A DNA stretch of 64,000 bases from Pecten maximus (taxonomy: Eukaryota). Positions 42,008 to 64,000 of the stretch are shown in pieces. A program made the translations under genes and the position numbers. Under the pieces are notes generated by a model. The model was not told the origin of the DNA and searched no databases. It saw only the letters and a list, made by a program, of their open reading frames with translations. The stretch covers positions 17,794,001-17,858,000 of the forward strand of contig NC_047024.1 of assembly GCF_902652985.1 (NCBI RefSeq), written 5' to 3'. Numbering within the stretch: the stretch's first letter is position 1; every line of letters begins with the position of its first letter.

Positions 42008-42559
42008 GGCAAAATAAAAAAAACATTATATTAAATGTGTATTAAGTATTTGTGTATACTTGTGAATACGAAACTGTTGTGACATTGATGAGTGATGATG
42101 CGTTTTATTAAGTATATACTGGAAAGTAATACTGGAAAGTACTTAATAAAGGCAATTACCCTAGAGAGAATATATTACATTCAATATATAATATAACCTT
42201 TGGGAGCAGCATTGACAGCATTTTGATACCTGTGTTTCTGTCTCGGGTGAAAAGAACTGTCTTGTGCAAGTCTATGATATAATTTAAGCTACGTAACACC
42301 ATGTTATTATTAACAACACCTTATACAATGACTTGATAACAATTACTGTAAAATTATTCGTGTGTATATAATGATTTTTTTATACTAATTACTTGAAATT
42401 GTGTTACAGTATATATGATGTCTTATTCTATACTAAACATGCTGACATATGTACAATTATAGACGTAGGGGTTTCTATGAAGAAGTCCGAAAAGCCTGTG
42501 ACGTATTTTTCTAATTCGGTACATCTCTGGCGTTTTCCGCGCGCCAATACCAATCGATC

Positions 42560-42621
42560 AAACATGTAGAAGCGTATTTTAGCGAACAAGTTTCAGCCTG
42601 CCGCGGTAAACAGTATAAATA
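42560..42621 (+). promoter_or_regulatory. Promoter of VWA gene copy A: p53-like element plus TATA box
   Basis: AAACATGTAG (42560), GAACAAGTTT-CAGCCTGCCG (42584-42603), TATAAATA (42614). Conserved in all four copies. CRE-like TGACGTA at ~42499. Confidence 0.6.
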
Positions 42622-43224
42622 GGGGTGCGAACAGACGACAGGCAGCAGTGTGTATTGGATCGGCGAGGTGAACACATTCACTGTACTGTACCTACGACTA
42701 CACACGTATACAGTGTAAAGCTATCGACTGGTTATAAACTACATATACCTAAGCTACCTTACTCTACGGTTATTAGAAAAGGTGATTTATGTAAACAAAT
42801 CTTAAAGGTTTTGAATAAGAATGTCAAACTTAATCAATACTATTTTATAGGAAGCGTAATTGATGTTAAAATTTAGCTAGTAAACCTCACAGCCTTTACC
42901 TTCATTTGCCCTAATAGTAACAGATCGTATATAGGGTTTAAAAAGAAAGTTCGCCTGAAGAGACTGTTTCATTTCATATACTACGTATGTAAGTAAAGGT
43001 GGTTTCAACGAAATAATTATAGGTTTTCATCAAAACAAAATTAAGAAATATTTCTATCATCTTTGTTCAAGTTTAGAAGTTTTTGTTGTATAGATGTAAA
43101 TATTACCAATCGTTAGACAATTATAACAATTCATGTATATTTATCTCTAGTATACCAATAAAGTAAAGTAATGGAGGAATAAGAATATAACGTTTTTATA
43201 AATATATTTTCAGATTTTATAATC

Positions 43225-45122
43225 ATGGCGGCACCACCCATGCTTCCACCTGGAGGACTCCTTGAAATCGTCTTCTCCTTTGATACTACCGGATCCATGT
43301 CCTCCATACTTGAGGAGGTCCAGGGAAGGCTACAGGACATGATACAGCGCCTCCAGGCGGATATTCCCGGCATCAGAATTGGTGTCATAGCCCATGGCGA
43401 TTACTGTGACGAAAAAGTCTTCTACTTGACCAAAGAACTTGACCTATGTACAAACGTTGTAGAACTTTGTAACTTCGTGAAGGGTGTGGAAGGAACTGGT
43501 GGTGGAGATGAAGATGAATGTTATGAATTAATTCTCCGAATGGTTCGACAAAATTTCACATGGACGCCAGCATCACAGAAAATCCTGGTCATGATTGGAG
43601 ACGCCAAACCCCATGAACCTGAATATGAACTGAATGTTGATAACATTGACTGGAGAGCAGAAGTCACGGATCTTCACAATATGGTAAGTAATGGAACCAT
43701 AACTGATCAATAACCTGTATGATTCAGAAATAATTATACATTTATCATATCAATATGAATCTCTAAAGGACTAAGTTCATTCCTGTAAAATCAATAATGA
43801 CAATTCTTTTTTCAGGGTGTGAAAATATATGGTGTCCAGGTGTTTGATCACCAAGGCGTTGAGGACTTCTACAAGACGATTTCCACAAACACAGAAGGAC
43901 ATTACCTCAAGCTGAACGAATTTTCCAATATCTGTGACTTCCTCATGGCTATCTGTTATCGGGAGAGGGGCGAGGACCTTTTTTCTGTAAGTATCAAACA
44001 CTGCCAAAAATCATGCAAATGTTTACCTGGAATATGAACTGAATTGATAAACATTATGCATTGTTCTTATCTTTCAGTTAGATAAAGCTTAAACATAGTA
44101 AAGACAAATATCAATAATTTCTAATTTGTCTATTACAGGGCTACGAAGCCGAAGTCCGAGGTCGATATGGGTCAGGTGGTATTAACAGAGACCTAGAGGG
44201 ATTATTTGGAACTCTGAGGAAGACCGATTCAAGTACAAGTGGCATTCACCCAGCCCCGTCACTTATTTCACCAATGTCATCTACAACAACGACTGTTACA
44301 ATGCCAACACCAAAGGTGACTCCTAATAGGCCAAGGGTGAATCCCAAGCGAAGGAACGTCACTGCCAGCAATATAAAGGTAACGACTGGTTTTTAGAGGC
44401 TTTATATTTTAAACAAAATTTTAAAATCCAAATATCGAACCAAAATTTGAATAATAATCACTGTAAATAAATTCCTTCGGCACTGCTCCAAGATTAAATT
44501 TCTTCTCTTGATATTAACTTGTTTTAGCTAGTGGGAATGCAACATCAACTAATAATTATATATTAAAATTTTCCAGAACAAATTCAAGAAAAGTGGTGAT
44601 GATGCTGATATGATTCCAAGAGAGAAAACAACGAATAAAGCCTTCACGTGCAACTGTCTAGATTGGACGTCATGGAGACTGGCGTATATTCCAACAGACG
44701 TGAATGAAGAAAAGACAAAACGTGGATTCAGGCGGAACTTCAGGGGAGCATGTCATAGGCGTGTTCAACTTTTCAGAGACAATTGCAAATCAGCCCTCTA
44801 TGAGGTAGCAGTACAAACAAAGGCACGTGGAAAACGCCACGTGATGTTCTCCAAGGTCATTTCCGGTACTATTGACAATCGTGAATGGGAATACAATCTT
44901 CTGTTTGGAGCGAAACAACGACTTCGCAGACAAATAAAAAGTGTTGTCGAACAGGGCTGCAAAGTGTTTGTAAGAAGGGCAGTCCTGAGTAAGAAATCTC
45001 TTGCTGAAGTGGACACTTTGAACAAATATAGTTACGCATGGAACCTCCAGAAATATACTCGTCAACACAGACGTGTCGTGAGAGACTATGTCGTCATTTC
45101 CGGTGAATGTATGGAGGAATAA
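43225..45122 (+). CDS. VWA domain + S/T/P/basic linker + ET-like (GIY-YIG-fold) domain protein, copy A, 471 aa; exons 43225-43683, 43816-43986, 44139-44378, 44577-45122
   Basis: Phase-0 GT-AG introns. VWA motifs IVFSFDTTGSM, IRIGVIAHGDYCD, TGGGDEDECYE, LVMIGDAKPH, GVKIYGVQ, FYKTIS..TEGHYL. C-terminal WTSW...ALYEVAV...HVMFSK...GCKVFVRRA...AE...KYSYAWN. No signal peptide. Confidence 0.9.
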
Positions 45123-47580: not shown

Positions 47581-47642
47581 AAACATGTAGTGGCGTATTT
47601 TAGAGAACATGTCTCAGCCTGCCGCGGGAAACAGTATAAATA
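47581..47642 (+). promoter_or_regulatory. Promoter of copy B: p53-like element plus TATA box
   Basis: AAACATGTAG (47581), GAACATGTCT-CAGCCTGCCG (47605-47624), TATAAATA (47635). Confidence 0.6.
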
Positions 47643-48109: not shown

Positions 48110-50004
48110 ATGGCGGCACCACCCATGCTTCCACCTGGAGGACTCCTTGAAATCGTCTTCTCCTTTGATACTACCGGATCCATGTCTTCCATACTTGAGG
48201 AGGTCCAGGGAAGGCTACAGGACATGATACAGCGCCTCCAGGCGGACATTCCTGGCATAAGAATCGGTGTCATAGCCCATGGCGATTACTGTGACGAAAA
48301 AGTCTTCTACTTGACCAAGGAACTTGATCTCTGTACAGACGTTGTAGAACTTTGTAACTTCGTGAAGGGGGTGGAAGGAACTGGTGGCGGAGATGAAGAT
48401 GAATGTTATGAATTAATTCTCCGAATGGTCCGACAAAACTTCACATGGACACCAGCATCACAGAAAATCCTGGTCATGATTGGAGACGCCAAACCCCATG
48501 AACCTGAATATGAACTGAATGTTGATAACATTGACTGGAGAGCAGAAGTCACGGATCTTCACAATATGGTAAGTAATGGAACCATAACTGATCAATAACC
48601 TGTATGATTCAGAAATAATTATACATTTATCATATCAATATGAATCTCTAAAGGACTAAGTTCATTCCTGTAAAATCAATAATGACAATTCTTTTTTCAG
48701 GGTGTGAAAATATATGGTGTCCAGGTGTTTGATCACCAAGGCGTTGAGGACTTCTACAAGACGATTTCCACAAACACAGAAGGACATTACCTCAAGCTGA
48801 ACGAATTTTCCAATATCTGTGACTTCCTCATGGTTATCTGTTATCGGGAGAGGGGCGAGGATCTATTTTCTGTAAGTATCAAACACTGCCAAATCACTCA
48901 AATGTTTAACTGGAATATGAACTGAATAGATAAGCATTATGAATTTTTCTAATCTTTCAGTTAGATAAAGCTTAAACATACAAAAGACAATATCAATAAT
49001 TTCTAATTTGTCTATTACAGGGCTACGAAGCCGAGGTCCGAGGTCGGTATGGGTCAGGTGGTATTAACAGAGACCTAGAGGGATTATTTGGAACTCTGAG
49101 GAAGACCGATTCAAGTACAAGTGGCATTCACCCAGCCCCGTCACTTATTTCACCAATGTCATCTACAACAACGACTGTTACAATGCCAACACCAAAGGTG
49201 ACTCCTAATAGGCCAAGGGTGAATCCCAAGCGAAGGAACGTCACTGCCAGCAATATAAAGGTAACGACTGGTTTTTAGAGGCTTTATATTTTAAACAAAA
49301 TTTTAAAATCCAAATATCGAACCAAAATTTGAATAATAATCACTGTAAATAAATTCCTTCGGCACTGCTCCAAGATTAAATTTCTTTTCTTGATATTAAC
49401 TTGTTTTAGCTAGTGGGAATGCAACATCAACTAATAATTATATATTAAAATTTTCCAGAACAAATTCAAGAAAAGTGGTGATGATGCTGATATGATTCCA
49501 AGAGAGAAAACAACGAATAAAGCCTTCACGTGCAACTGTCTAGATTGGACGTCATGGAGACTGGCGTATATTCCAACAGACGTGAATGAAGAAAAGACAA
49601 AACGTGGATTCAGGCGGAACTTCAGGGGAGCATGCCATAGACGTGTTCAACTGTTTAGAGACAATTGCAAATCAGCCCTCTATGAGGTGGCAGTACAAAC
49701 AAAGGCACGTGGAAAACGCCACGTGATGTTCTCCAAGGTCATTTCCGGTACTAATGACAATTGTGAATGGGAATACAATCTTCTGTTTGGAGCGAAACAA
49801 CGACTTCGCAGACAAATAAAAAGTGTTGTCGAGCAGGGCTGCAAAGTGTTTGTAAGAAGGGCAGTCCTGAGTAAGAAATCCCTTGCTGAACTGGACACTT
49901 TGAACAAATATAGTTACGCATGGAATATTCAAAAAGACACTCGTCAACACAGACGTGTCGTGAGAGACTCTGTCGTCATTTCCGGTGAAAGTATGGAGGA
50001 ATAA
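48110..50004 (+). CDS. VWA + ET-like domain protein, copy B, 471 aa; exons 48110-48568, 48701-48871, 49021-49260, 49459-50004
   Basis: Same exon lengths (459/171/240/546) and splice sites as copy A; intact ORF. Confidence 0.9.
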
Positions 50005-51789
50005 GTTAAAGATTTGTGACACTGATAACTTAAGTGATGAAATAGGAAATATATGAACAGTATGTGATATCGAATTAAATTGCCATTGCATTCCTTGCCA
50101 TTCCATGTTAATTACATATTTGTTATATAAATGTGCCATATGTATATATTTTTCGTATTACTTTTTACCTATCTTGTTATTGTTTTGGTTGAAATAAAAA
50201 TTAATATTGACTTATCCTTGTCGTTGTATATCAGTGGTGTCAAATGGTCAACAGATGATTATCGTCTTATAATATCATGGAATAAAATTCAAACTGTATT
50301 CAGAAGATTTATTTCAATGTTGTAACGTTATCCGTAATGTAAACAAACATTAAACTTGTGGTGTGAGACATATGAAAACAAACGAAAATGAAACCACCAC
50401 TCAGCGTAATATGAATAATAGGGTGTGAAAATCTTGGATGACCAGCTGTAAATTCTGAAAGAGACATCTCTGTCATCGTGTTCAACTGAGAACGATGTTT
50501 TATATTGTAAAACAATCCAAGTTTGGTATTACCTTTCTGATTTATATAATGTGTGTACAAATAAAAAATCAAAGTAAAATAAGTTTTGAATGGTATTAAC
50601 AGACGCATGTAACGATCAAAACCGTGTGACTGCACTTTTAGTATGGACTTAGTAATAGACACAATAGATACATTAAACCTCGATACTGCAGTCTTCTAGA
50701 ATTTCTTATTTATTACAGGTGACAAAAATAATGGTAGTCCAGAAAACCCCGAAAAACAAAATAGGTATAATCAAATGCTCAATTATATCATAAGTAAATC
50801 TATTTGGTGCATTTTCTAAATTGCAGTTTCCATTTTTGGAATGCCATATAACTATCTACTATGTCATATGTAAACGATCCAAATAATCTACTTATATTAC
50901 ATCGCAGCTAGGGTTTACAAATGGCACGTGCTGTCCACATTGAATAAGGGTTGTCAGAAAGTGAATCAATATATAAATAACTTTATAAAATGAAATTCAG
51001 CTTCTGTAAATTCTTGGAAGACGAAATGCTTCACAATTTATAGGTACTCTGCTTATCGCTAAAAAGTATTCTCTAATGGACGTATTTAGAAAATCAATAT
51101 GAGACATACCATATACCGATGTGTATTAAAACGTTTAACAATAAATATCCAAAAGGGAGGGAACTTAAATATGTAGCTAGGTTTTTAGCTAGGTTTTTAC
51201 AAGATAAAAACCTATACTAAGTGATTTCACATGTTTCCTAAAATGATTTGATTTGTATATACATCGCGAGTGTAAATAAGATGACCTTGATGTACTGCAT
51301 GAATTAGTACGCATTCTCGTAGATTTTTTAAGTATGTTTTTTCCTCTGCTGTAAATACAGCATGCTAAAACAATTGAGTAAATTTTGTTCTAGTATAGCC
51401 ACTAATTTGTATAAGATATATATGGCAGAACAGTGTGCCTTATCTTCATCAGAGGGGCGTCACTTCAGGTTCTGTTTATTTTCTTTCATTTGTTTTCTGT
51501 CCGAAAGTGGTCTTAAAGTGCCAGGACGTTTTTTTTTACCCTTCTGCAAGGTTTGTATCCTATCCAGAAATATCAGTAACAGACTTCGGGTTTTTTGTAA
51601 CTAGTTCGGAAGAGTTTGTAACAGAAGCACTTTAGCTTAATTGTCCGGAAAAAACAAGGCTTATCTACCTTGAAGCGATTTTGAAATCCTTACCTGAAGC
51701 TTAATTCACTTCTACTATACCATTACATTCCTTAATTTCCTATTCCATTCTGTGCAATTAAACAAATAAACAACACTGTACTCTTTCAT

Positions 51790-52940
51790 AGATCCTATGA
51801 CTTTAGGTAACCAGAGTGTAGGTGGATATCGTAGATCCCATGACTTTATAGGTACAAATGTAACCAGAGTGTAGGTGGATATCGTAGATCCCATGACTTT
51901 ATAGGTACAAATGTAACCAGAGTGTAGGTAGATATCGTAGATCCTGTAACTTTATAGGTAACCGGAGTGTAGGTGGATATCGTGGATCCTATGACTTTAT
52001 AGGTAACCAGAGTGTAGGTGGATATCGTAGATCATGTGACTTTATAGGTAACCAGAGTGTAGGTGGATATCGTAGATCATGTGACTTTATAGGTAACTAG
52101 AGTGTAGGTGGATATCGTAGATCCTATGTCGTTATAGGTAACCAGAGTGTAGGTGGATATCGTAGATCCTATGACTTTATAGGTAACCAGAGTGTATGTG
52201 GATATCGTAGATTATGTGACTTTATAGGTAACCAGAGTGTAGGTGGATATCGTAGATCCTATTACATTATAGGTAACCAGAGTGTAGGTGGATATCGTAG
52301 ATCCTATAACTTTATAGGTAACCAGAGTTTAGACGGACATCGTAGATCCTATGACATTATAGGTAACCGGAGTGTAGGTGGATATCGTGGATCCTATGAC
52401 TTTATAGGTAACCAGAGTGTAGGTGGATATCGTAGATCCTATGACATTATAGGTTACCAAAGTGTAGGTGGATATCGTAGATCCTATGACTTTATAGGTA
52501 ACCAGAGTGTATGAGGATATCGTAGATCATGTGACTTTATAGATAACCAGAGTGTAGGTGGATATCGTAGATCCTATGACTTTATAGGTAGCCAGAGTGT
52601 AGGTGGATATCGTAGATCATGTGACTTTATAGGTAACCAGAGTGTAGGTGGATATCGTAGATCCTATGACGTTATAGGTAACCAGAGTGTAGGTGGATAT
52701 CGTAGATCCTATGACTTTATAGGTAACCAGAGTGTAGGTGGATATCGTAGATCCTATGACTTTATAGGTAACCAGAGTGTAGGTGGATATTGTAGTTCCT
52801 ATGTCATTATAGGTAACCAGAGTGTAGGTGGATATTGTAGTTCCTATGACTTTAGAGGTAACCAGAGTGTAGGTGGATATCATAGATCCTATGACTTTAT
52901 AGATAACCAGAGTTTAGGTGGATATCGTAGATCCTATGCT
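51790..52940. repeat. 45-bp minisatellite, about 25 copies
   Basis: Unit gatatcgtagatcctatgactttataggtaaccagagtgtaggtg, head to tail with no spacers. Confidence 0.95.
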
Positions 52941-52954
52941 TTTATGGAGGGTTA

Positions 52955-53475: not shown

Positions 53476-53555
53476 TATTGCTGTCACTTATGGAATTCCA
53501 CTGCTGTAACATTTTCAGGCTATACATTTACCTCCCCATGGAAGAAAGAGAGACT

Positions 53556-55600
53556 TGAGAGATGTATTGTTATTGGGTACATCTGTTCTCCACACTTTAG
53601 AGATGCATTGTTATCGGGTACATCTGTTCTCCACACTTTGGAGATGTGTTGTTATTGGGTACATCTGTTCTCGGTACTTTAGAGATGTATTGTTATTGGG
53701 TACATCTGTTCTCCACACTTTATAGATGTGTTGTTATTGTGTACATCTGTTCTCCACACTTTAGAGATGTGTTGTTTTTGGGTATATCTGTTCCCCACAC
53801 TTTAGAGATGTATTGTTATTGTGTATATCTGTTTCCCACACTTTAGAGTTGTATTGTTATTGGGTATATCTGTTCCCCACACTTAAGAGATGTCTCGTTA
53901 TTGGGAACTTCTGTTCATATCTGTTCTCCACACTTTAGAGATGTCTCGTTATTGTGTATATCTGTCCTTCACACTTTAGAGATGTCTCGTTATTGGATAT
54001 ATCTGTTCCTCACACTTTAGAGATGTATTGTTATTGGGTACATCTGTTCTCCACACTTTAGAGATGTATTGTTATTGGGTATCTGTTCTCCACACTTTAG
54101 AGTTGTATTGTTATTGTGTATATCTGTTCCCCACACTTTAGAGATGTATTGTTATTGTGTACATCTGTTCTCCACACTTTAGAGATGTATTGTTATTGGG
54201 TACATCTGTTCTCCACACGTTAGAGATGTATTGTTATTGGGTACATCTGTTCTCCACACTTTAGAGATGTGTTGTTATTGGGTACATCTGTCCTCGGTAC
54301 TTTAGAGATGTATTGTTATTGGGTACATCTGTTCTCTACACTTTAGAGATGTATTGTTATTGTGTACATCTGTTCTCCACACTTTATAGATGTATTGTTA
54401 TTGTGTACATCTGTTCTCCACACTTTATAGATGTGTTGTTATTGTGTACATCTGTTCTCCACACTTGAGAGATGTGTTGTTATTGGGTACATCTGTTCTC
54501 CACACTTTATAGATGTATTGTTATTGGGTATATCTGTTCCCCACACTTTAGAGATGTATTGTTATTGGATAAATCTGTTCTCCACACTTGAGAGATGTAT
54601 TGTTATTGGGTATATATGTTCCCCACACTTTAGAGATGTATTGTTATTGGGTATATATGTTCTCCACACTTTGGAGATGTCTTGTTATTGTGTATATCTG
54701 TTCTCCACACTTTAGAGATGTATTATTATTGGGTATATCTGTTCTTCACACTTTAGAGATGTATTGTTATTGGGTATATCTGTTCATATCTGTTCTCCAC
54801 ACTTTAGAGATGTATTGTTATTGGGTATATCTGTTCGTATCTGTTCTCCACACTTTAGAGATGTCTCGTTATTGTGTATATCTGTCCTTCACACTTTAGA
54901 GATGTCTTGTTATTGTGTATATCTGTCCTTAACACTTTAGAGATGTCTTGTTATTGGGTATATCTGTCCTTCACACTTTAGAGATGTCTCGTTATTGGGT
55001 ATATCTGTTCTCCACACTTTAGAGATGTATTATTATTGGGTATATCTGTCCTTCACACTTTAGAGATGTCTCGTTATTGTGTATATCTGTCCTTCACACT
55101 TTAGAGATGTCTTGTTATTGTGTATATCTGTTCCTCACACTTTAGAGATGTATTGTTATTGGGTATATCTGTTCGTATCTGTTCTCCACACTTTAGAGAT
55201 GTCTCGTTATTGTGTATATCTGTCCTTCACACTTTAGAGATGTCTTGTTATTGTGTATATCTGTCCTTCACACTTTACAAAGGTATTGTTATCGGGTATA
55301 TCTGTTCTCCACACTTTAGAGTTGTATTGTAATTGGGTATATCTGTTCTCCACACTTTAGAGATGTATTGTTATTGGGTATATCTGTTCCCCACACTTTA
55401 GAAAGGTATTGTTATCGGGTAGATCTGTTCTCGACACTTTAGAGATGTCTTGTTATTGAACATATCTGTTCTCTACACTTTAGAGATGCGTTGATATTGG
55501 ATATATCTGTTCTCAATACTTTAGAGATGGATAGATTTTGTTCCATACATTTTAGAGATGTAATGCTGTTGGTTAAGTCTATTCTCCATACTTTAGAGTT
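53556..55600. repeat. 41-bp minisatellite, about 50 copies
   Basis: Unit gagatgtattgttattgggtacatctgttctccacacttta, head to tail, decaying at the right end. Confidence 0.95.
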
Positions 55601-56092
55601 GCATTCGTTCATTGCTTATATCACATCACTTGGTATGATTTGAATAGTTCATTATTTTTATTTAATTTTTGTAGCGTTTGTTATTGATATTGAAATGAAG
55701 TTAACACTTTTAATTTACGTATTGATTTTCATTAGATATAACAGTGTATATGATGAAAAACAGGTTATAAAATTCGCATTTAATATCATACTTTTTTTTA
55801 CATACGAAGGAGATACTGTTACTTTTAGTCACTCATTCCATACTGACTATGTTTTTCTTTTTATGACTCATTTGACAATATCAGTTAAATAACAACAATA
55901 CTGCCAACGATATATCAAATGGCTTTATTTAAAACCAAACAATTAACATACAAAATAAAAAATAATATAATTTAAAACTAATGTGACTTGGCAAGATATG
56001 ACAATTTAGTTCAATGTCATTTTAGCACCTCAATATTATGTTAATGAGTTCATAACACATTGAAATTATGTCTTTAATCGGATGATAAAAGT

Positions 56093-57992: not shown

Positions 57993-60900
57993 GATTATTA
58001 AATCTGAAAGGAGATTTATAGTTCAATTAAATTACTTATTCGTACATACTACTTTGATATAAAATGACATTATTTTTTAGATTTGTTATATTCAATACTT
58101 TATGACAGTATTGTCTGAGCTCCTGATGGAAAGGAGCAGTATCTTAAGGTGAACATATTTGTTCTTTTTAAACACTGTATAAGATTTGTTGTAATTGGGC
58201 AAAATAAAGATACCTTAGAAGTTATGGTAAAGACTGTGGGGTTTACAGCTAATATTAACAACGCTACCTAGAAATAGTAATGATTAAGTTACGTTCTCTA
58301 ATTGAAAGCCTATAAGATTTGTTTATATTAATCACCTTTTTCTAATAACCTAAGAGTAAGGTAGCTTAGGTATATGTAGTTTACCAGTTGATAGCTTTAC
58401 ACTGTATAAGTGTGTAGTCGTAGGTATCGTACAGTGTATGTGTTCACCTCGCCGATCCAATACACACTGCTGCCTGTCGTCTGCTCGCAGCCCTATTTAT
58501 ACTGTTTACTGCGGCAGGCTGAAACTTGTTCGCTAAAAATACGCTACTACATGTTTGATAACGAACACCACTTCATTGGAAATTATCAGAGGAGTATCGA
58601 GTTAGAAATCGCGTCAGAGTGTATTCGGACTTTTTCGTAGAATTAAGCCTTGCGTCTACAACTATGCATGAGTCAGCACAGTTAGAATATGAAAGGCCTC
58701 AGTGGACCGCCGTATATATATTTATGAAGACCATGCCTCTTTAAAAGTATTATCCTTGATAATTTTCAATAAACGTATAATATTCATTTCATCATAATGT
58801 TCATGCGACACTGGAATTGTATTAACTCATTATATAAATGTGATACGCTACAGTATATATATCGATAGACAGAACGAAAACACAACAAGGATTATATAAA
58901 TTATCAATTTAGTCAAATTCTCAGTCATGTATATATATGATATCTCGATTCTATTAAAAAAATGATCGAATGTTACACATTGTTCTGTATGTAAGCACGT
59001 GTGTGTTCATTTCCATATACATGTAGTCTTTATTGACTTACGCACGATCTGCTATGTAACATAAATACGTTATATTACAATAATATATGTCAGACTTTCG
59101 GTGATACATAGTATGGTAAAATATGTTACCTCAGTTCTTGCTTCTATTAACATTGATTCCTAGAGTTGATATATAATATTTGGTATTATAAGTTCAGTAT
59201 ATATACATTTCTACAATGTCACATCCTCCTTTAAATTACCCGTTTTCGTAATGATTTAATCAATATATGTATTATCATAAGCATTGTATTTAGTGTGCCG
59301 AATCTCCGGATTAAGTAATGCGAAAATATTATAAGTACTCGTATCAATAGATAATGTATTTGTGGCTGCTGTTGATGTAAGGGTCCTATTATCAGTTGGA
59401 TAACGAGTTACACGCAATATACATGCACCCAGATGTAATATTGTTCATGATTAACCAAGATTTTTTCGAAAAAAAAAATTCATTTGTTTGACTTTTGTTT
59501 TTATTTGATTGTGAGAGAATATTTTAATTAGATATTTCCGATCCTTGAATAGCTTATTTCTGAACACCATTGGATAAAACACTTTCATTATTTGAATCTA
59601 CAAAATATTGTACTTTGAGTTACGTTATGATGTGCTGTGTTTTATCAACAGTATTAATGAACTTGACAATAAGGTTTTGAAACGACGAAGCCGTTTCTAT
59701 ATATACCATATCAGATGGTAATTGTATATAGTGATCGTAATATAGAATTATAAGTTTATTCTTATGTTCTTCCTGGTCATTTCATTTCAATTTATTTATT
59801 TATTTTTTTCAAAAATATTAAATCACTATGTGTTGGTTCCTCATATAAAGGTAGTTTGTCGTTAAACCACAAAGTACATGGAACCCAAGCAAGTCAACGT
59901 AGTATACCGTATTATGCAGTGGGTTATTTTTCCATTTTATTTATTTATATTGTGTTAACACCCAGTTGCCTATTTTCAATGTTAGGTTTATATTTGTATT
60001 ACTTCCACTCTTTGTGATTCGTTTGACCTTAGCAGATATCCTCGTTTCGCCTCTGATGTTTAACTGTTGTTTTTTCATTATTTGTTTATTTCCCGTTCAT
60101 GCTATTTTACCTTCTGTCTTGAAGTCACATGCATACCCATTGTACTGGTTATCGATTCCTAGTTCAAATTGTGACATTGTATGAGGAATGATACATACTA
60201 TTTCTAATATTTGTTTTTATATTCTCAATGATTTCATTCCAAACTACTGTCAGTGGTTTATATTTTGGTCCACTGGACTTTTAGCGTATAGCTGAATTTA
60301 AACTGGTCAACGAAATGATGAATTAGCATATCCACAATATTTTCGTAGATAATATTGTAATATTTCTTCTGCAATTTGCGATTAGCACTAGTATAAATTA
60401 GCAAAAATATTTCAGTCCAAATGCGCTAAAAAAACTATTACGACTGCTATATGTATCGCTATCAATTAATCCGCTCATTATCAACATATCTTAATAACGT
60501 TTGTAAGATGAGTTTTGTTCATTTTTCGACATAAACATGTCTATATAATCAGAGAAATTGAATTGATCAAATTTTCTTCAATAATGCGTTATCGACTCCT
60601 GTAAACTAAAGTGCATGTCAGGAGAGTTCAGTCAATAATTACATGTATGTGTTTGATATTACATGTACATATGTATATATACTGATCGTTTATATATACA
60701 TCCATATACAACTGCAAAACATCAAAATGTTAGATCTAAAGCGATATTTATCATCCAGGAACTTCTTACCCTATTATTCATATTACGTTGAGTGTTGGTT
60801 TTATTTTCGTTTGTTTTCATATTTCTTCACACCACAAGTTTAATGTTTTCTTGCATTACGGATAATGTTACTATATTGAAATACATTTTCTGAATACAGT

Positions 60901-63096: not shown

Positions 63097-64000
63097 GATT
63101 ATTAAATCTGAAAGGAGATTTATAGAACAGTTATAGTATGTGCTCCTCCATTACTTTATTTAAATGGTATACTGTAGATAAATATAAGTGAAGTGTGCTA
63201 ACGATTGGTAATATTTACGTCTATACAATGAAAACTTCTAAACTTGCATGAAGATAATAGAAATATTACTGAATTTTGTTTTGTTGAAAACCTATAATTA
63301 TTTCGTTGAAATCACCTTAACCTTAACTTTACGTAGTAGGCCTATATGAAATGAAACAGTCTCTTAAGGCGAACTTTCTTTATAATCCTTACATACGATT
63401 TGTTACTATCAGGGCAAATGAAGGTAAATGCTGTGAGGTTTACTAGCTAAATTTTAACACCAATTACGCTTCCCATAAAATAGTAATGATTAAGTTTGAC
63501 ATTCTTATTCAAAACCTTTAAGATTTGTTTACATTAATCACCTTTTCTAATAACCGTAGAGTAGCTAGGTATATGTAGTTTATAACCAGTCGATACACTG
63601 TATACGTGTGTAGTCGTAGGTATAGTACAGTGAATGTGTTCACCTTGCTGATCCAATACACACTGCTGCCTGTCGTCTGCTCGCAGCCCTATTTATACTG
63701 TTTCACGCGGCAGGATGAGACTTGTTCGCTAAAATACGCTTCTACATGTTTGATCGATTGGTATTGGCGCGCGGAAAAAGGCAAAGATGTACCGAATTAG
63801 AAAAATACGTCACAGGCTTTTCGGACTTCTTTATAGAAACCCTCACATCTATAATTATACATATGTCAGCATGTTTAGTATAGAATAAGACAGTATATAG
63901 ACTGTAGCACTATTTCAAGTAATTCGTTTAAAAAATCATTACATACACACGTATAATTTAACAGTAATTATTATTGTATATAGTCATTGTGTAAGGTGTT

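What the first reader, a model, noticed from the sequence alone, without database searches (positions are those of the whole stretch)
42560..42621. p53-type response element next to the TATA box, conserved through consensus-preserving substitutions in all four copies
Seen: about 20 bp upstream of TATAAATA each copy has a perfect RRRCWWGYYY half-site: A GAACAAGTTT, B GAACATGTCT, C GAACAAGTTT, D GAACAAGTCT. The differences fall only at the degenerate W and Y positions. An imperfect half-site (CAGCCTGCCG; CATCCTGCCG in D) abuts it, and AAACATGTAG lies 14-15 bp upstream, while flanking promoter sequence has diverged between the A/D and B/C types. A CRE-like TGACG also precedes it. Knowledge: p53/p63 family proteins bind tandem RRRCWWGYYY sites, and bivalves have p53-family genes. 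Inference: the array is a p53-family target, consistent with a DNA-damage role for a GIY-YIG-fold protein.
Basis: partly seen in the sequence, partly recalled or inferred. Interest (0 to 1): 0.7.

Follow-up and report, generated by a model that had tools for sequence, protein, structure and literature searches.

The report
p53-family site kept across scallop paralogs
A DNA site shaped like a p53/p63 binding site lies just upstream of the TATA box of a four-copy scallop gene, and similar sites lie at the predicted starts of three distant sister-gene lineages, so this unstudied gene family is likely switched on by the mollusc p53-family protein.

Summary
Perfect half-sites occur at chance level (12 vs 12.5), the four copies are 86-92% identical, and two consensus-keeping substitutions have P about 0.15. 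Stronger evidence lies elsewhere. The element is a no-spacer 20-mer (42584-42603) with C4/G7/C14/G17 intact, 30 bp before the TATA box of a spliced, transcribed gene for a vWA plus GIY-YIG-fold protein. The same rule, fixed on copy A, hits 3 of 5 other paralog lineages. There the site lies 139-169 bp before a predicted first splice donor, in promoters that no longer align with A's. Background is 7 sites in 441 kb, and 0 of 859 TATA-anchored windows. The rule's only hit in 40 kb of the genome's own p63-like gene lies 201 bp before the DeltaN first-exon donor, recalling the p53-DeltaNp73 loop. CP2/Grainyhead motifs fit worse. Binding, induction and orthologous promoters are untested. A DNA-repair role is not shown, and GIY-YIG catalytic residues were not found conserved.

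The parts
42584..42603 (+). Copy A: p53/p63-type 20-mer, no spacer (perfect half-site plus 3-mismatch half-site; C4, G7, C14, G17 intact)
42560..42569 (+). Copy A: upstream extra half-site AAACATGTAG (2 mismatches, CATG core), invariant in 4 of 4 copies, 5' edge of the conserved block
42499..42503 (+). CRE-like TGACG half-site, present in 4 of 4 copies; function untested
42614..42621 (+). Copy A TATA box TATAAATA
   Evidence: 5'-most listed RNA contig piece begins at 42661
42661..42781 (+). Non-coding exon 1 (5' end not mapped; start predicted near 42645), spliced GT..AG to 43214
   Evidence: joint seen in 2 of 4 runs, which read as copy-D-like alleles; runs are RNA by guess
43214..43683 (+). 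Exon 2, CDS from 43225, vWA domain
   Evidence: Pfam VWA E 1.5e-5; joints
43816..43986 (+). Exon 3, end of vWA domain
44139..44378 (+). Exon 4, Ser/Thr/Pro-rich then basic linker
44577..45122 (+). Exon 5 coding part, GIY-YIG-like fold domain
   Evidence: PF19239 E 6e-4, below cut-off; model pLDDT 91.7; T4 EndoII Z 7.2
47605..47624 (+). Copy B 20-mer (upstream half-site 47581-90, TATA 47635-42; CDS 48110-50004)
58512..58531 (-). Copy C 20-mer (upstream half-site 58547-56, TATA 58494-501; CDS 57992-56093)
63708..63727 (-). Copy D 20-mer, 4 mismatches so it fails the rule (upstream half-site 63742-51, TATA 63690-97; CDS 63096-61191)

Best explanation
The element is likely a binding site for the scallop's p53/p63/p73-family protein, lying 30 bp upstream of the TATA box of a spliced vWA plus GIY-YIG-fold gene. 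Shown: the motif, the TATA box, the exon structure, a p63-like gene with the DNA-contact residues, and same-geometry sites at three other paralog lineages and before the DeltaN exon. Inferred: a tetramer of the TA isoform binds the no-spacer 20-mer, helped by the extra CATG half-site 24-25 bp upstream, and activates transcription. The DeltaN isoform, driven by a similar site, would damp the response. The sites are imperfect, so activation would need raised p53-family levels, most likely after stress or DNA damage; that trigger is the least supported step (about 0.45).
For: (1) The rule (C4/G7/C14/G17 intact, at most 3 mismatches) was set on copy A before the paralogs were viewed. It hits lineages E, F/G and H, 139-169 bp before a predicted first donor (A: 198 bp) and 55-74 bp before a TATA-like box in F, G and H. 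(2) The four promoter lineages share no similarity above shuffles (scores 16-24, null maximum 25-37). (3) Background: 7 sites in 441 kb, 0 of 859 TATA-anchored and 0 of 171 donor-anchored windows; dinucleotide shuffles of the promoters hit in 0.2-0.6%. Without any anchor, P(at least 3 of 5 lineages within 6 kb) = 0.0065. (4) 0 of 4000 fully permuted motifs hit 2 or more lineages; 6 of 3838 half-permuted motifs hit all 3, and all six keep CNNG at a 10-bp period. (5) The own p63-like gene has equivalents of K120, R248, R273, C277 and R280 (human numbering recalled). The rule's single hit in 40 kb of that locus (2 mismatches; 1 such site in 441 kb of background) lies 201 bp before the donor of an exon whose 13 residues match the N-terminus of Mytilus P0018 and, at 12 of 13, Lottia DeltaNp63alpha P0030. 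(6) Literature: C4/G7/C14/G17 define p63 sites (PMC7735755); specificity is conserved out to fly p53 (PMC2807882); p53 activates the DeltaNp73 promoter (PMC4613676).
Against: No binding, reporter or induction data, and no orthologous promoter from another species was tested. The second half-site of A-C has 3 mismatches and a CCTG core; D and I have 4 mismatches and fail the rule. Lineages J (no site in 29 kb upstream) and K (none in 9.5 kb) are negative, though their promoters were not located. E's first exon had no RNA cover. TATA and donor anchors in E-I were picked after the hits were seen and are unverified by RNA. The anchor-free P rises to 0.043 at the upper 95% background rate, about what allowing 1-bp spacers, as one search did, would give. 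F, G, H and I each show a frame break in this assembly, so they may be pseudogenes or assembly errors. Perfect 20-mers are not enriched genome-wide (66 vs 118 for the reversed control). A review holds half-sites and spaced sites to be largely non-functional (PMC5511239), which weakens the role of the upstream half-site.
Confidence: 0.72

Rival explanations
1. The 10-bp-period CNNG repeat is bound by a CP2/LSF or Grainyhead factor, which share the p53 fold, and drives epithelial or constitutive expression.
For: The genome has CP2-family genes. CP2 binds CNRG-N5/6-CNRG, related to the p53 site (PMC5829564). One half of A, C, H and I is 2 mismatches from AACCGGTT. The permutation test pins down CNNG periodicity more than the flanks.
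Against: 0 of 10 sites fit CNRG-N6-CNRS on either strand, and 9 of 10 have at least one CWWG core. Grhl1 prefers central CG or CC and p53 prefers AT or AA.
Confidence: 0.1
2. The site is a real p53-family site but serves constitutive or developmental DeltaNp63-type control (epithelium, germ line), not a damage response. This rival concerns the trigger and is compatible with the best explanation's binding step.
For: Cores such as CCTG and CTCG fit p63's CNNG tolerance (PMC7735755). The gene is spliced in runs of 4 studies of unknown treatment. No conserved catalytic residues were seen.
Against: The TATA-proximal position fits inducible p53 targets (PMC5511239). The plant GIY-YIG gene ET2 is induced sevenfold by irradiation, ATM-dependently (PMC6585611), which is only an analogy.
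Confidence: 0.3
3. Chance: the motif rides in a core promoter kept alike by recent duplication or gene conversion, and the paralog matches are coincidences of a loose rule.
For: Half-sites occur at chance level; A-D conservation is not special; 2 of 5 lineages are negative; anchors were chosen after the hits were seen; the anchor-free P is only 0.007-0.04.
Against: Three non-alignable lineages and the DeltaN promoter all place a site 139-201 bp before a first donor, against 0 of 171 donor-anchored background windows. Permuted motifs do not reproduce this.
Confidence: 0.15

Closest known systems
p53/p63/p73 response element (RRRCWWGYYY x2, no spacer)
   Same: 20-bp geometry, C4/G7/C14/G17, one perfect half-site, promoter-proximal position.
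   Different: The second half-site is degenerate (3 mismatches) and there is an extra half-site at a 14-15 bp spacer. The host is a mollusc with a p63-like gene, and binding is untested.
p53-responsive P2 promoter of TP73 (DeltaNp73 feedback loop)
   Same: The scallop p63-like gene has a 2-mismatch 20-mer 201 bp before the donor of its DeltaN first exon.
   Different: Shown in mammals (PMC4613676, passages). Only predicted here, and outside the window.
Plant EFFECTOR OF TRANSCRIPTION / PF19239 GIY-YIG domain; T4 EndoII
   Same: The C-terminal domain matches PF19239 weakly (12 of 39 family members at E<=0.05) and folds like EndoII (Z 7.2, rmsd 3.4, 110 aligned).
   Different: It is fused to a vWA domain instead of ET repeats, the GIY/YIG motifs are degenerate, and no conserved catalytic Arg or Glu was seen.
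[quoted passage not shown]
   Same: Database name given to Mizuhopecten homologs; the similarity is probably through the vWA domain (inference).
   Different: Pfam finds no RING domain in the 4 full-length proteins scanned, so the name is likely a misleading transfer.

Membership tests
p53-family response element | Two decamers with no spacer and C4, G7, C14, G17 intact | tested here: met
   4 of 4 window copies and 5 of 5 sites in E-I
p53-family response element | Close match to RRRCWWGYYY in both halves (CWWG cores) | tested here: inconclusive
   One perfect half in A-G; second core CCTG or CTCG; both cores CWWG only in E and the DeltaN site; D and I have 4 mismatches
p53-family response element | Promoter-proximal position | tested here: met
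   Copy A: 30 bp before TATA, RNA contig from 42661. For paralogs the start is predicted only, and E had no RNA cover.
p53-family response element | Cognate factor with conserved DNA-contact residues in the genome | tested here: met
   PF00870 at G000:C16:6.63 Mb; named tumor protein 63-like; human residue numbering recalled
p53-family response element | Binding and p53-family-dependent transactivation | not testable with these tools
   needs EMSA, ChIP or reporter assay
p53-family response element | Conservation in orthologous promoters | not testable with these tools
   No relative genomes are held; all 24 listed runs were one organism; the metagenome scan gave 3 distant vWA loci, 32-45% identical. 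Paralogs were used instead.
CP2/LSF site | CNRG-N6-CNRG/C | tested here: not met
   0 of 10 sites; the N5 spacing was not tested
Grainyhead site | AACCGGTT | tested here: not met
   Best half is 2-5 mismatches away and none has a central CG
GIY-YIG nuclease superfamily (gene product) | GIY-YIG fold | tested here: met
   Ranks 1, 2, 4, 5, 7 and 8 of the wide search are EndoII, Hpy188I, I-TevI, UvrC, Eco29kI and a plant Grx N-terminal domain (family labels partly recalled). Best Z 7.2 is middling, next 4.4; Foldseek E 0.019.
GIY-YIG nuclease superfamily (gene product) | Catalytic Arg (helix 1) and metal-binding Glu (helix 3) | tested here: inconclusive
   In 39 aligned sequences no Arg exceeds 18 of 39 in residues 85-116 and no Glu exceeds 4 of 39 in residues 126-146; invariant residues are W22, E65, R122 and Y142. 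No residue-level superposition was done; expected positions are recalled.

The most novel reading that the evidence does not exclude
The vWA plus GIY-YIG-fold family (bivalves, gastropods, a brachiopod, a nemertean, a flatworm) is an old, undescribed effector arm of the lophotrochozoan p53/p63 pathway. Its p53-family site has been kept through complete turnover of the promoter in four paralog lineages. It is wired together with a DeltaN feedback site that would predate the split of molluscs and vertebrates, and the protein acts on damaged or foreign nucleic acid through a rebuilt active site.
Probability: 0.3. Interest if true: 0.68.

Novelty: new member of a known kind. Interest (0 to 1): 0.47.

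Why it matters
My searches (listings only) showed no mapped p53-family response element or direct target in a bivalve, though subscription papers are not covered. A TATA-proximal site kept in four promoter lineages, plus the DeltaN-promoter site, gives ready reporters for what the mollusc p53/p63/p73 protein controls. That bears on the ancestral role of the family, on bivalve neoplasias and on genotoxicity biomarkers. It also points to an uncharacterised protein family as a candidate effector.

Tried and rejected
Half-site enrichment in the window: none. Conservation among the four copies as evidence: not significant. Genome-wide enrichment of perfect 20-mers: none, 66 vs 118, with many near-identical repeats. 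RNA check of paralog E's first exon: no cover upstream of the vWA exon, so no verdict. MDM2 as a positive control: the one PF02201 hit reads like a SWI/SNF BAF60 subunit (my reading), so it was dropped. Orthologous promoters from metagenomes or runs: none obtained. Stand-alone relatives of the C-terminal domain: none at E<=0.001 among 31 candidates, which is weak evidence. The ESM Atlas gave no answer. A promoter for J could not be placed. The second, weaker pair of half-sites 37 bp upstream of the DeltaN site has 5 mismatches by eye and was not counted; the script line for it was off by one base. A mussel contig named R811 fell about 40-fold after injection injury (PMC6401078, passage and section 14 part 1), but its identity with this family is unverified, so it was not used. 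The DeltaN peptide was not found in the full-text library. Look-ups of earlier findings returned nothing. No supplements were read; expression tables there may bear on inducibility.

Full report
Observation. The window holds four recent copies of one gene: A and B on the plus strand, C and D on the minus strand, 86-92% identical. A perfect half-site is common, with 12 in the window against 12.46 expected. Among A-D, 2 of 10 columns vary in the perfect half, 1 of 10 in the abutting half and 0 of 10 in the upstream half. For comparison, 7 of 78 vary just downstream of the TATA box and 29 of 52 just upstream of the block. With the copies' own substitution spectrum, two substitutions both keeping the consensus has P=0.15.

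The gene. Contigs of 4 runs (RNA by guess, 4 studies) show four GT..AG joints. One of them, seen in 2 of 4 runs, joins a non-coding exon 1 (from at least 42661 to 42781) to 43214, so the TATA box at 42614 is the likely core promoter. The 471-residue product has a vWA domain and a C-terminal domain with a sub-threshold PF19239 match. Database names identify it as an uncharacterised Pecten maximus protein, with homologs in other scallops and Lingula. Of 150 listed cluster representatives I looked up 10; six carried names, from Mactra, Haliotis, Lottia, Babylonia, Tubulanus and Macrostomum. A model of the C-terminal domain (39 sequences, pLDDT 91.7) matches T4 EndoII best (Z 7.2, rmsd 3.4, 110 aligned), followed mostly by other GIY-YIG proteins (Foldseek E 0.019). 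No conserved Arg or Glu was seen in the helices that carry the catalytic residues in that family (expected positions recalled), so nuclease activity is doubtful.

The independent test. Searches of the own genome found five other lineages: E (85% identity in the vWA exon), F/G (62%), H/I (61%), J (49%) and K (vWA only). The rule was fixed on copy A: two decamers, C4/G7/C14/G17 intact, at most 3 mismatches, spacer 0-1. It found no-spacer sites in E (G000:C10:35233842-861), F (42217443-462), G (42223501-520) and H (C12:942445-464). I has the same site as H with 4 mismatches and has lost the TATA box. The sites lie 139-169 bp before a predicted first donor (198 bp in A), and 55-74 bp before TATA-like boxes in F, G and H. 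Other hits of the rule within 6 kb, not at such positions, were two in F and one in G, plus one inside the neighbouring copy's coding exon for B and for C. J and K have no site upstream, but their promoters were not found, and RNA did not cover E's predicted first exon. The four positive promoter lineages do not align with each other above shuffles, so the site is not carried by leftover similarity.

Controls. In 441 kb (40 spaced 10-kb stretches plus the first 41 kb of the window) there are 7 no-spacer sites with at most 3 mismatches and 1 with at most 2. None of 859 TATA-anchored and none of 171 donor-anchored windows holds one; a looser weighted score gives 2 of 859 and 1 of 171. Dinucleotide shuffles of the promoters hit in 0.2-0.6%. 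With no anchor, P(at least 3 of 5 lineages within 6 kb) is 0.0065, or 0.043 at the upper 95% background rate. With 120-bp windows it is about 1e-7, but those anchors were chosen after the hits were seen. Of 4000 fully permuted motifs none hit two lineages; of 3838 half-permuted ones 6 hit all three, each keeping CNNG at a 10-bp period. Perfect 20-mers are not enriched genome-wide (66 vs 118).

The factor and an internal control. The genome search found one p53-family locus, named tumor protein 63-like, with the DNA-contact residues kept. The rule's only hit in 40 kb of that locus has 2 mismatches and lies in the intron after the TA exons, 201 bp before the donor of a 13-codon exon. That exon equals the N-terminus of Mytilus P0018 and, at 12 of 13 residues, of Lottia DeltaNp63alpha P0030. 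In mammals p53 activates the DeltaNp73 promoter (PMC4613676, passages). This control was found by the same scan and not predicted in advance, and it is itself untested.

Mechanism. Most likely a tetramer of the p63-like protein binds the 20-mer, overlapping the region just upstream of the TATA box, and activates the gene; the DeltaN isoform would limit this (inferred). Positions 4 and 7 carry most of the specificity, which is conserved out to fly p53 (PMC2807882, passages). p63 sites are defined by C4/G7/C14/G17 and tolerate CNNG cores (PMC7735755, passages). Long spacers are penalised (PMC4470028, passages) and lone half-sites appear non-functional (PMC5511239, passages), so the unit is the abutting pair rather than the 14-bp-spaced pair. 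CP2 (CNRG-N5/6-CNRG) and Grainyhead (AACCGGTT) share the fold (PMC5829564, passages) and the family is present in the genome, but 0 of 10 sites fit the CP2 pattern at N6 spacing and 9 of 10 have a CWWG core. A damage trigger rests on analogy: the plant GIY-YIG gene ET2 is induced by irradiation (PMC6585611, passages).

Caveats. F, G, H and I each have a frame break in this assembly. No ortholog promoter, binding or induction data could be had. Ten literature searches were seen as listings, eight papers were read in passages, and no supplements were read; no report of this site or of this family as a p53 target appeared in them.

Verdict. Observation confirmed. A p53-family site is likely (0.72) and is a new member of a known kind of element; the damage-response role is open. 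Interest 0.47.

Noticed in passing
L072:1358-1377 (G000:C16:6626357-376): Two-mismatch p53-type 20-mer upstream of the DeltaN first exon (L072:1520-1558) of the p63-like gene, with a weaker pair of half-sites 37 bp further up; suggests an autoregulatory loop as at TP73 P2.
   Followed up: partly
L030 and L031, 8-10 bp before the TATA-like boxes of paralogs F and G: Perfect CRE palindrome TGACGTCA between the p53-type site and the TATA box; A-D have only TGACG further upstream, and H has a TGACGTCA in intron 1. G also has a third half-site 21 bp after the start of the 20-mer.
   Followed up: no
G000:C12:942445-464 and 932045-064: The H/I site overlaps a separate palindrome (GAACAG-NN-CTGTTC) kept in both copies; another dimeric factor could read it. 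I has lost the TATA box that H keeps.
   Followed up: no
G000:C10:42.218M, C10:42.226M, C12:0.937M, C12:0.930M: One frame break each in paralogs F (vWA exon), G and H (last exon) and I (N-terminal extension): pseudogenes or assembly indels.
   Followed up: partly
window 42429-42560 vs 47456, 58689, 63872: Upstream promoter sequence groups A with D and B with C, whereas over the whole gene A is as close to B as to D (92% each); suggests inverted duplication plus gene conversion.
   Followed up: partly
window 15035-16399, 25722-26209, 51786-52948, 53550-55622: Tandem minisatellite arrays; the last two separate the A/B and C/D inverted pairs.
   Followed up: no
L075-L089 and other matches: Many perfect p53-type 20-mers recur as near-identical sequences on several chromosomes, probably two repeat families that carry the motif.
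   Followed up: no
L028, about 1400-1500 bp upstream of E's vWA exon: A 100-bp hairpin-like inverted repeat in a high-depth stretch, probably a small mobile element.
   Followed up: no
L063-L065: Metagenome contigs encode vWA domains 32-45% identical to this family's vWA domain; no match to the GIY-YIG-like part was reported.
   Followed up: no
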